A stretch of 11,080 nt of DNA from UHGV virus genome UHGV-0230593; one strand, 5' to 3'. Positions 6,344 through 6,848 of the stretch are shown piece by piece (the first letter of the stretch is position 1; every line of letters starts with the position of its first letter). The translations under genes were made by a program, and so were the position numbers. This DNA comes from a virus. The notes beneath the pieces are model-generated. The model ran no database searches and was not told where the DNA came from. It worked only from the letters and a program-made list of their open reading frames with translations.

Positions 6344-6357
6344 CACTTATTTTCCCT

Positions 6358-6379
6358 GGCTCGCTTTTGCGGGCTTTTT
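6358..6379 (+). terminator. Terminator after the tRNA cluster
   Basis: GCTCGC-TTTT-GCGGGC (one G-U pair) followed by TTTTT. Confidence 0.55.
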
Positions 6380-6612
6380 ATTACAGGAAAGACACCGGAC
6401 AGTGAAATGTTAAATGCCTCACAATTCAGGCAGTTGATGATTGTCTGGTTGACGGAGAGTTGTTAAAAAATTTTTGCATGGTGAATCCCCCTGTGCGGAG
6501 GGGCAATCAGCGAGTAGGTATATGGGATAATCGCGGATTCAGGTGCTGGTACTGAATTCACCGGGAGGCACCCGGCACCATGCAGTTATGCAATGTAAAT
6601 GTTCACACAAGC

Positions 6613-6640
6613 AAATCCCCTCTCCGGAGGGGATTTTTTT
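6613..6640 (+). terminator. Strong rho-independent terminator
   Basis: AAATCCCCTC-TCCG-GAGGGGATTT (10-bp stem) followed by TTTTTT; a partial copy of the hairpin motif occurs at about 6485-6504. Confidence 0.7.
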
Positions 6641-6727
6641 ATGCAAAAAAAGCCCGAGTGTGTTCGGGCAACAGCATGAGATACCTGCATTGTCATTTTT
6701 ATCGTGTGGATTTTAACCAGGGTTTAT

Positions 6728-6759
6728 AAGGCTGCGCAACTGCGCGGCCTTTTTCGTTT
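6728..6759 (+). terminator. Rho-independent terminator upstream of nanS-p
   Basis: AAGGCTGCGC-AACT-GCGCGGCCTT followed by TTTTCGTTTT. Confidence 0.6.
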
Positions 6760-6848
6760 TGCGGGCTGCGGTTCTCCTCTTTTGATTCTCCGTGTAGCCG
6801 GACCGTGGCCCGCAACTGTTGAGGAAAATCCCGGAAAGGGGAGGAATA

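What the first reader, a model, noticed from the sequence alone, without database searches (positions are those of the whole stretch)
6344..6848. Toxin-less slot between the tRNA triad and nanS-p, occupied by stacked terminators and a repeated hairpin motif
Established knowledge: in Stx-converting phages stxAB sits between ileZ-argN-argO and nanS-p. Seen in sequence: here that interval is about 500 bp with no credible ORF but three + strand terminator-like hairpins (6358-6379, 6613-6640, 6728-6759), an inverted A-run-hairpin element (6644-6669) and two copies of an AATCCCC..GGAGGGG hairpin motif (about 6485-6504 and 6613-6634). Inference: this may be a scar of cargo exchange at a known moron hotspot, or encode a small RNA ending at the 6613-6640 terminator.
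Basis: partly seen in the sequence, partly recalled or inferred. Interest (0 to 1): 0.45.

Follow-up and report, generated by a model that had tools for sequence, protein, structure and literature searches.

The report
Known convergent prophage small-RNA pair
The 500-bp gap between the phage tRNA genes and nanS-p is not an empty toxin scar: it holds two already-described prophage small-RNA genes facing each other, the same module that lies just downstream of the Shiga toxin genes in Stx phages, so the finding is real but ordinary.

Summary
They are not a scar.

- **+ strand RNA:** 6448-6645 matches Rfam STnc100 (RF02076) at 135.7 bits against a cut-off of 47. This is the STnc100/EcOnc27/PasD family. 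The two "AATCCCC..GGAGGGG" hairpins are its first stem-loop and its terminator.
- **- strand RNA:** 6645-6704 is an allele of the Hfq-bound anti-sRNA EcOnc03 of O157 Sakai prophage Sp9 (49 of 51 nt identical, same 5' variable region). It belongs to the AgvB/AsxR anti-sRNA class.
- **Third hairpin:** 6728-6751 is homologous to the terminator of EPEC PasD2 and overlaps the anti-sRNA promoter.
- **Cargo site:** Stx1, Stx2a and TerB-carrying prophages keep this whole module. Their cargo sits in a junction of about 20 bp (6385-6404) after the tRNA terminator.
- **Ancestry:** the cargo-free junction is identical in Sakai Sp9 and most related prophages examined. tRNA-then-STnc100 also occurs in other Enterobacterales genera.

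The small-RNA guess is supported and the scar guess is not. Convergent sRNA pairs at this site were described by Tree et al. 2014. Expression here and the targets remain untested.

The parts
6094..6343 (+). Phage tRNA triad (context): tRNA-Ile2 (CAU) 6094-6169, tRNA-Arg (UCG) 6177-6253, tRNA-Arg (UCU) 6267-6343
   Evidence: ARAGORN; Rfam tRNA hits; PGAP annotation of the identical ECO2947 locus
6358..6379 (+). T1: intrinsic terminator directly after the last tRNA. It belongs to the tRNA block, not to the cargo slot.
   Evidence: Terminator scan. The sequence is conserved in the Stx2a phage and in ABU 83972 upstream of their cargo.
6385..6404 (.). The actual cargo-free junction (moron insertion point), about 20 bp. 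In other prophages stx1AB, stx2AB or TerB+DUF3927 lie here.
   Evidence: Left-flank homology to cargo-bearing loci ends near 6384 and right-flank homology starts near 6405. The 20-mer is 100% identical in most of 66 related loci and in Sakai Sp9.
6441..6469 (+). Inferred promoter of the + strand sRNA: -35 TTGTCT 6441-6446 and extended -10 TGT-TAAAAA 6461-6469
   Evidence: TGTTA.AA.A and TTG.CTG are invariant in six divergent loci. It is not reported by the strict consensus scan. PasD2's RNA-seq 5' end maps 7 nt downstream of the equivalent -10.
6476..6640 (+). STnc100/PasD/EcOnc27-family sRNA, 165 nt if the 5' end is as in PasD2. The Rfam match spans 6448-6645. Elements: closing helix 6476-6483/6576-6583, hairpin 6488-6503, hairpin GGAUUCAG/CUGAAUUC, hairpin CCGGG-AGGCA-CCCGG, a single-stranded candidate seed at 6584-6612, and terminator T2 at 6613-6640.
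   Evidence: Rfam RF02076, 135.7 bits against a gathering score of 47, model positions 1-206. The consensus fold of 7 alleles has 34 pairs, 7 of them with compensatory changes. MFE z-score is -3.06.
6645..6704 (-). Anti-sRNA of the AgvB/AsxR/EcOnc03 class, EcOnc03 allele. Variable 5' targeting region 6685-6704, conserved core 6652-6684, terminator stem 6652-6669, U-tract 6645-6651.
   Evidence: Rfam AgvB 49.9 bits (cut-off 56) and AsxR 41.9 bits (cut-off 63). It differs by 2 mismatches in 51 nt from the published EcOnc03 sequence. A - strand terminator is found there.
6710..6739 (-). Inferred promoter of the anti-sRNA: -10 TAAAAT (6715 to 6710) and -35 TTGCGC (6739 to 6734), with an 18-nt spacer
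   Evidence: Read from the sequence. The block is 96-100% identical in all 66 EcOnc03-type loci and conserved in AsxR-type loci. 5' ends of family members were mapped by RLM-RACE in PMC4104026. The scan does not call it.
6728..6759 (+). T3: + strand intrinsic terminator in front of nanS-p. Its stem overlaps the -35 of the anti-sRNA promoter.
   Evidence: Terminator scan, 10 pairs of which 7 are G-C. It is conserved in Stx1, Stx2a and ABU loci and is homologous to the terminator that ends the northern-verified PasD2 sRNA.
6759..6848 (+). nanS-p leader: long inverted repeat 6759-6772/6802-6815, a GGAGG ribosome-binding site, then ATG at 6849
   Evidence: Inverted repeat I4; translation from 6849

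Best explanation
The interval is the conserved regulatory-RNA module of the lambdoid late region. It lies between the moron insertion point and nanS-p and holds two convergent, independently promoted and terminated small-RNA genes whose 3' ends are 4 nt apart.

(1) A structured + strand RNA of about 165-200 nt belongs to the STnc100/EcOnc27/PasD family. By analogy with PasD, it most likely base-pairs with target RNAs through the roughly 29-nt unpaired stretch just 5' of its terminator (6584-6612). That stretch is allele-specific.

(2) A - strand anti-sRNA of about 55-60 nt is an allele of EcOnc03. By analogy with AgvB (which sponges GcvB) and AsxR (which destabilises FnrS), it most likely uses its variable 5' end (AAAUGACAAUGCAG) to sequester or destabilise a host Hfq-dependent sRNA. 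Its conserved 3' part supplies stability and terminator function.

The three + strand terminators (T1 after the tRNAs, T2 ending the sRNA, T3 before nanS-p) would keep transcription that is not Q-modified out of nanS-p and the lysis genes in the lysogen.

Shown here: family membership, architecture, conservation, and the position of the cargo site. Inferred: expression in this strain, the exact 5' ends, Hfq dependence, both targets, and the insulating role of the terminators.
For: - Rfam gives STnc100 at 135.7 bits (cut-off 47), full length, and AgvB/AsxR-like hits on the opposite strand.
- The same pair (STnc100 on +, AgvB/AsxR-type on -, then nanS-p) is found in Stx1 phage 75/02, an Stx2a phage, ABU 83972 and an O157 prophage.
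- Tree et al. 2014 (PMC4104026) describe exactly this layout: convergent Hfq-bound sRNA pairs between the moron CDS and the conserved downstream ORF in Sp3, 4, 5, 9, 10, 11, 15 and 17. Their anti-sRNAs are 51-60 nt with a conserved 3' part of about 42 nt and a variable 5' end of 14-18 nt.
- The published EcOnc03 sequence differs from the window's - strand RNA at 2 of 51 positions.
- The structure of the + RNA is supported by compensatory changes among 7 alleles and by a z-score of -3.06.
- PasD2's mapped 5' end aligns to G6476, and its seed lies in the same single-stranded position.
- T3 is homologous to PasD2's functional terminator.
- The module is very common: matches to 6400-6850 occur in 2862 of 5426 complete E. 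coli genomes, and 160 records match at 99% identity or more.
Against: - No transcript data exist for this strain or this exact allele.
- The - strand RNA scores below the Rfam gathering cut-offs of AgvB and AsxR. This is expected, because its 5' region differs.
- Neither promoter passes the strict sigma-70 scan.
- EcOnc27 was reported as about 235/247 nt, longer than the 165-171 nt predicted from the PasD-type start. The 5' end may therefore lie further upstream or arise by processing.
The AgvB-GcvB control stood out, reached by 3 of 60. No target can be named.
- EcOnc03 itself has no published target that I could find.
Confidence: 0.85

Rival explanations
1. The interval is a deletion or exchange scar left where stxAB or another moron was lost, and the hairpins are debris or recombination signals.
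For: This is the known moron hotspot. Other prophages carry stx1AB, stx2AB or TerB+DUF3927 between the tRNAs and nanS-p. The + RNA body is mosaic relative to Sakai Sp9, so recombination does occur here.
Against: - Positions 6405-6848 are retained in the cargo-bearing phages, downstream of their cargo.
- Cargo sequences have no significant match in the window.
- The 20-bp junction is identical across most of 66 related loci whose sRNA bodies differ.
- tRNA-then-STnc100 without cargo is also seen in Salmonella diarizonae, Cedecea, Pantoea and E. albertii.
Confidence: 0.05
2. The hairpins are only a stack of transcription terminators that insulate nanS-p and the lysis genes until Q antitermination. 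No functional RNA products are made.
For: Three + strand terminators lie in 400 bp, an excess over shuffles. All three are conserved. Their position between PR' and the lysis genes fits the logic of lambdoid late regulation (established knowledge).
Against: - This does not explain the 130-nt conserved, covarying structure upstream of T2.
- It does not explain the - strand gene with its own promoter and terminator.
- It does not explain the abundant Hfq-bound transcripts seen from homologous loci (PMC4104026, PMC8550237).

The insulating role is compatible with the main explanation as an added function.
Confidence: 0.07
3. The + strand structure is a cis-acting leader or attenuator that controls nanS-p rather than a trans-acting sRNA.
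For: It lies directly upstream of nanS-p in the same orientation. A further long inverted repeat sits in the nanS-p leader (6759-6815).
Against: - Two terminators and an opposing gene separate it from nanS-p.
- The family also occurs without nanS-p: PasD1 precedes a holin, there are tandem arrays in Pantoea, and copies occur on plasmids.
- PasD forms Hfq-dependent chimeras with many unlinked mRNAs.
Confidence: 0.03

Closest known systems
EcOnc03 (anti-sRNA of E. coli O157:H7 Sakai prophage Sp9; Tree et al. 2014, PMC4104026)
   Same: Same position and strand relative to the tRNAs and nanS-p, and the same flanks. 49 of 51 nt are identical, including the whole 5' variable region AAAUGACAAUGCA. 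The promoter block and terminator are the same.
   Different: There is an A-to-G change at the boundary of the variable region (GCAAG becomes GCAGG) and one change in the terminator loop (CCC becomes CAC). The convergent partner RNA is a different allele. The target of EcOnc03 is unpublished as far as the searched library shows.
AgvB (RF02702) and AsxR (RF02703), the characterised anti-sRNAs
   Same: They share the 3' core of about 42 nt (GUAUCUCAUGC..UUGCCCGAAC...CUCGGGCUUUUU), the size, the convergent position and the promoter. The presumed mode of action is therefore the same: an Hfq-associated sponge or destabiliser of a host sRNA.
   Different: The 5' targeting region differs. AgvB has the GcvB-mimic CACAACA and AsxR has UUAUUAAACGA, while this RNA has AAAUGACAAUGCAG. 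Scores are below both gathering cut-offs (49.9 against 56; 41.9 against 63), so it is neither AgvB nor AsxR and should not be assigned their targets.
STnc100 (RF02076) / EcOnc27 = sRNA103 downstream of stx2B / EcOnc28 of Sp9
   Same: It is a full-length covariance-model match with the same helices, terminator and location. EcOnc27 is Hfq-bound and northern-verified.
   Different: The window carries the allele otherwise found downstream of stx1 in Shigella phages 7888 and 75/02 (95-98% identical). Its unpaired pre-terminator region and its terminator are unrelated in sequence to those of the Stx2a and Sp9 alleles. Targets reported or proposed for EcOnc27 (fimZ, espA, stx2B) therefore cannot be transferred.
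PasD1/PasD2 of EPEC E2348/69 (Pearl Mizrahi et al. 2021, PMC8550237; Zhu, Shabalina and Storz 2026 preprint)
   Same: It shares the promoter, the 5' end (GCAUGGUGAAUCC), the GGGAGGC hairpin and the position upstream of the sialate esterase gene. The preprint already concludes that PasD and STnc100 share an ancestor.
   Different: The PasD seed (CCUUGUGAGUU) is absent here. PasD ends at the homologue of T3 and has no anti-sRNA gene behind it. PasD therefore looks like a deletion derivative of the arrangement seen in this window.

Membership tests
STnc100 (Rfam RF02076) | Covariance-model score at or above the curated gathering score (47 bits) over the full model | tested here: met
   135.7 bits, E=2e-31, model positions 1-206 of 206, window 6448-6645 +
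STnc100 (Rfam RF02076) | Conserved secondary structure kept through compensatory changes among relatives | tested here: met
   RNAalifold on 7 alleles gives 34 pairs, 7 of them with changes on both sides. The window's centroid fold agrees. Only 7 sequences were used, so the support is moderate.
STnc100 (Rfam RF02076) | Expressed as a discrete, Hfq-associated transcript | not testable with these tools
   Known only for homologues: EcOnc27/EcOnc28 by Hfq-CRAC and northern, and PasD by RIL-seq and northern
Prophage anti-sRNA class (AgvB/AsxR/EcOnc03; Tree et al. 2014) | RNA of about 51-60 nt with a conserved 3' region of about 42 nt ending in an intrinsic terminator, and a variable 5' region of 14-18 nt | tested here: met
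   The 3' core aligns without gaps to the AgvB and AsxR models, and the 5' part diverges. A - strand terminator lies at 6669-6652.
Prophage anti-sRNA class (AgvB/AsxR/EcOnc03; Tree et al. 2014) | Encoded convergently with a second sRNA between the moron site and the conserved downstream ORF (nanS-p) | tested here: met
   The + RNA ends at 6640, the - RNA ends at 6645, and nanS-p starts at 6849. The layout is the same in four reference loci.
Prophage anti-sRNA class (AgvB/AsxR/EcOnc03; Tree et al. 2014) | Antagonises a host Hfq-dependent sRNA through the 5' region | tested here: inconclusive
   In a duplex screen against 24 recalled sRNA sequences the best hit was SgrS at -18.4 kcal/mol, matched by 16 of 60 shuffles. 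The AgvB-GcvB control was matched by 3 of 60.
AgvB (RF02702) sensu stricto | Score at or above 56 bits, and the GcvB-target mimic CACAACA in the 5' region | tested here: not met
   49.9 bits, and the 5' region is AAAAUGACAAUGCAG with no CACAACA
AsxR (RF02703) sensu stricto | Score at or above 63 bits, and location 3' of stx2B | tested here: not met
   41.9 bits, and there is no stx in the window
EcOnc03 | Sequence identity with the published RNA, including its 5' variable region, and an Sp9-type genomic context | tested here: met
   49 of 51 nt identical, with the variable region identical up to the boundary base. The flanks are 97-100% identical to Sakai Sp9.
PasD | Seed UGUGAG 5' of the terminator, and a T3-type terminator directly upstream of the esterase gene | tested here: not met
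   There is no UGUGAG in 6476-6640. The RNA ends at T2, and T3 is separated from it by the anti-sRNA gene.
Stx-phage moron slot (empty-site allele) | Flanks collinear with Stx phages, with stxAB absent at the junction | tested here: met
   The left flank matches up to about 6384 and the right flank from about 6405, compared with Stx2a, Stx1 and ABU loci. There are no cargo remnants.

The most novel reading that the evidence does not exclude
Both RNAs may be modular scaffolds with exchangeable targeting segments. This toxin-less prophage combines an Sp9-type backbone and EcOnc03 with the Stx1-phage-type STnc100 allele. That allele's unpaired segment of about 29 nt (6584-6612) is unrelated to the segments of EcOnc27 and PasD, so it would control a different, still unknown set of host RNAs in non-STEC E. 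coli. More broadly, the STnc100 core is linked to phage tRNA genes across Enterobacterales and forms tandem arrays of 4-5 copies in Pantoea. It may therefore have a conserved role beyond Hfq seed pairing, for example one tied to phage tRNA biology or late transcription.
Probability: 0.15. Interest if true: 0.45.

Novelty: already known. Interest (0 to 1): 0.15.

Why it matters
The main value is correct annotation. RefSeq leaves this interval blank or marks a spurious pseudo-CDS, although it holds two sRNA genes of families linked to EHEC and EPEC regulation. The comparison shows that the sRNA pair is part of the phage backbone and not of the toxin cargo. Non-Stx prophages in commensal, porcine and clinical E. 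coli therefore carry the same class of regulators of host sRNAs. It also narrows the moron insertion point to about 20 bp. EcOnc03 was the third most abundant new Hfq-bound sRNA in O157, yet it still has no known target. That remains a tractable open question, but it is not a new one.

Tried and rejected
1. Coding potential. Five ORFs or fragments in or overlapping the interval gave no Pfam hit at E<=1. The PGAP 'hypothetical protein' pseudo-CDS antisense to the + RNA recurs in three genomes and looks like an annotation artefact.

2. Cargo remnants. blastn with word size 7 of the Stx2a, Stx1, ABU 83972 and clone D i14 cargo segments against the window gave only chance hits. The one exception is the shared right flank.

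3. Target prediction for the anti-sRNA. This was no better than shuffled queries, and the ranking changed with the Sp9 allele. I rejected it as evidence. The recalled sRNA sequences were not verified.

4. Pairing between the two RNAs. The shared A(C/A)AUGCAG(U/G)UAU motif (inverted repeat I6) has the same sense in both RNAs, so they are not complementary there.

5. The consensus promoter scan found neither sRNA promoter. Both promoters are therefore inferred from conservation and from 5' ends mapped in homologues.

6. Other weak Rfam hits (Leu_leader, GcvB, MicC, RsmY, Plastid-ycf2 and others) are far below their cut-offs. They reflect terminator hairpins or the antisense of a tRNA.

7. One script timed out and one printed nothing. 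One script failed on a missing file.

Full report
**What the window is.** It is the late-region start of a lambdoid prophage of E. coli. Positions 6044-7148 are 100% identical to strain ECO2947. There the gene order is Q antiterminator, a small ORF, DNA methyltransferase, tRNA-Ile/Arg/Arg, a gap, SASA-family esterase (nanS-p), then holin and lysozyme. ARAGORN places the tRNAs at 6094-6169, 6177-6253 and 6267-6343. nanS-p starts at ATG 6849. No stx gene is present.

**Checking the observation.**
- The terminator scan of 5900-7100 reports + strand sites at 6358-6375, 6613-6636 and 6728-6751, and a - strand site at 6669-6652. That is six sites against 1.1 +/- 1.0 in shuffles.
- The repeated motif is family D1 (6488-6503 and 6617-6632, 88% identical).
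- The short ORFs in the gap have no Pfam match.

**What it is: the + strand.**
- Rfam places STnc100 (RF02076) at 6448-6645 with 135.7 bits (cut-off 47, E=2e-31), covering the whole model.
- A consensus fold of seven divergent alleles was built from the window, three other E. coli prophage classes, the two ABU 83972 copies and EPEC PasD2. It gives an 8-bp closing helix, three internal hairpins, an unpaired stretch of about 30 nt and the terminator. Seven of 34 pairs show changes on both sides.
- The window's own centroid structure agrees, with an energy z-score of -3.06.
- An extended -10 element (TGTTAAAAA, 6461-6469) and a TTG.CTG -35 are invariant in six loci.
- The RNA-seq 5' end of PasD2 (NC_011601:741157) aligns to G6476. 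This predicts a 165-nt RNA at 6476-6640.
- The true 5' end is uncertain, because EcOnc27 was reported at about 235/247 nt.

**What it is: the - strand.**
- Positions 6645-6704 match the AgvB and AsxR models just below their cut-offs (49.9 against 56 bits; 41.9 against 63 bits). The 3' core aligns perfectly and the 5' end diverges.
- Tree et al. 2014 give the sequence of EcOnc03 from Sakai prophage Sp9. The window's RNA differs at 2 of 51 positions and has the same variable region, AAAUGACAAUGCA.
- A direct alignment with Sakai Sp9 shows 97-100% identity for everything except the body of the + RNA.
- A TAAAAT -10 (6715 to 6710) and a TTGCGC -35 (6739 to 6734) precede it. This block is 96-100% identical in all 66 loci examined and is conserved at AsxR-type loci.

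**The architecture is already published.** Tree et al. [quoted passage not shown] Their anti-sRNAs are 51-60 nt, with a conserved 3' part of about 42 nt and a variable 5' part of 14-18 nt.
- EcOnc03 was the third most abundant new Hfq-bound sRNA and is destabilised without Hfq.
- AgvB sponges GcvB, and AsxR destabilises FnrS.
- EcOnc27 (also called sRNA103) and STnc100 downstream of stx2B are discussed in PMC12711010 and PMC12370729.
- PasD, which lies upstream of the esterase gene, and its common ancestry with STnc100 are covered in PMC8550237 and the 2026 preprint of Zhu, Shabalina and Storz.

**Where the cargo goes.** Rfam finds the same pair, STnc100 on + followed by an AgvB/AsxR-type gene on - and then nanS-p, in Stx1 phage 75/02, an Stx2a phage, ABU 83972 and an O157 prophage.
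- In the Stx phages the pair lies after stxB. In 75/02 the match to window 6405-6848 starts about 40 nt after the stx1B stop.
- Left-flank homology covers the tRNA and terminator T1 and ends near 6384. Right-flank homology begins near 6405.
- The empty site is therefore about 20 bp, not 500 bp. T1 belongs to the tRNA block.
- The 20-mer is 100% identical in most of the 66 EcOnc03-bearing loci, even where the + RNA body has diverged.
- Cargo sequences leave no trace in the window.
- STnc100-family hits lie next to tRNA genes in Salmonella diarizonae, Cedecea, Pantoea and E. albertii.
- The cargo-free order is therefore the common, probably ancestral, arrangement.

**The third terminator.** T3 (6728-6751) is conserved at Stx1, Stx2a and ABU loci. 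It aligns with the terminator that ends PasD2: GGCTGCGC-ATTGCGCAGCCTTTT against GGCTGCGCAACTGCGCGGCCTTTTT. Two things follow.
- T3 is very likely a working + strand terminator.
- PasD looks like an STnc100-type RNA in which T2 and the anti-sRNA gene were lost.

T3's stem also covers the anti-sRNA -35. Late transcription through it could therefore interfere with anti-sRNA expression. This is inference only.

**Mosaicism.** The window combines Sp9-type flanks and EcOnc03 with the + RNA allele found downstream of stx1 in Shigella phages 7888 and 75/02. The alleles share conserved islands: the 5' end, hairpin 1, the GGGAGGC hairpin and the closing helix. They differ entirely in the unpaired pre-terminator segment and in the terminator. 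PasD's seed lies in that segment, so I take 6584-6612 as the likely targeting region. Its targets cannot be inferred from EcOnc27 or PasD.

**Mechanism and its limits.** The most likely reading is two trans-acting, Hfq-associated regulators expressed from the lysogen. One is an anti-sRNA that titrates or destabilises a host sRNA. The other is a longer sRNA that pairs through its unpaired segment. The three terminators keep unmodified transcription out of nanS-p and the lysis genes. Family membership, layout and conservation are shown here. Expression, Hfq binding, 5' ends and targets are inferred from homologues. My attempt to name the anti-sRNA's target failed a shuffle control, while the AgvB-GcvB control passed.

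**Verdict.** The small-RNA reading is supported and the scar reading is rejected. The element belongs to described families and to a described architecture. It occurs in more than half of complete E. coli genomes (2862 of 5426 have a match). It is already known, and interest is low.

Noticed in passing
window 6849-8801 (break between 7565 and 7692): nanS-p is split. Frame 0 is open from 6849 to a stop at 7692, and frame 2 is open from 7565 to 8789, whereas ECO2947 has an intact 650-aa gene. The window is 97.95% identical to ECO2947 over 5.5 kb with 16 gap openings. The frameshift may be an assembly error rather than a true pseudogene.
   Followed up: partly
window 6466-6585 (- strand); also L069 1098-1339 and L191 2565-2690: RefSeq/PGAP annotates a pseudo 'hypothetical protein' fragment antisense to the STnc100-family RNA in three different genomes. 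It has no Pfam match, so it is probably a propagated mis-annotation of the sRNA gene.
   Followed up: partly
L106 894-2010; L132 6350-7858; L145 4087-5956: Pantoea genomes, including a 400-kb plasmid, carry tandem arrays of 4-5 STnc100-family copies at intervals of about 250-370 nt. In L145 a tRNA gene lies within the array. The 20-nt core TCACCGGGAGGCACCCGGCA occurs in at least 120 loci across many Enterobacterales genera. Only 1 of 130 instances has an anti-sRNA behind it.
   Followed up: partly
L004 2625-2830 and 3108-3317: E. coli ABU 83972 has two STnc100-family copies in one locus, after a TerB + DUF3927 cargo. Only the second copy is followed by an AsxR-type anti-sRNA.
   Followed up: no
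L191 2761-3096 (- strand): In E. coli 'clone D i14' the - strand position behind the STnc100-type RNA holds the anti-adaptor gene iraM instead of an anti-sRNA, and nanS-p is truncated. The convergent slot can therefore hold a protein gene.
   Followed up: no
window 6759-6772 / 6802-6815: A 14-nt inverted repeat (86% complementary, 29-nt loop) lies in the nanS-p 5' leader. The Stx2a allele keeps a CGGGCTG...CAGCCCG pairing with a different sequence, which suggests a conserved leader hairpin of unknown role.
   Followed up: no
window 6094-6169: ARAGORN calls this tRNA 'Met (CAT)', while PGAP and the Sakai annotation call it tRNA-Ile (ileZ, a CAU anticodon read as Ile after lysidine modification). 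Rfam also gives a spurious sub-threshold 'Plastid-ycf2' hit on its antisense strand.
   Followed up: no
L005 1504-1736; L190 780-1012: The O157 Sp9-type loci have only two tRNAs (Ile, Arg-UCU), with an 80-nt gap where the window has Arg-UCG. The tRNA block is itself variable.
   Followed up: no
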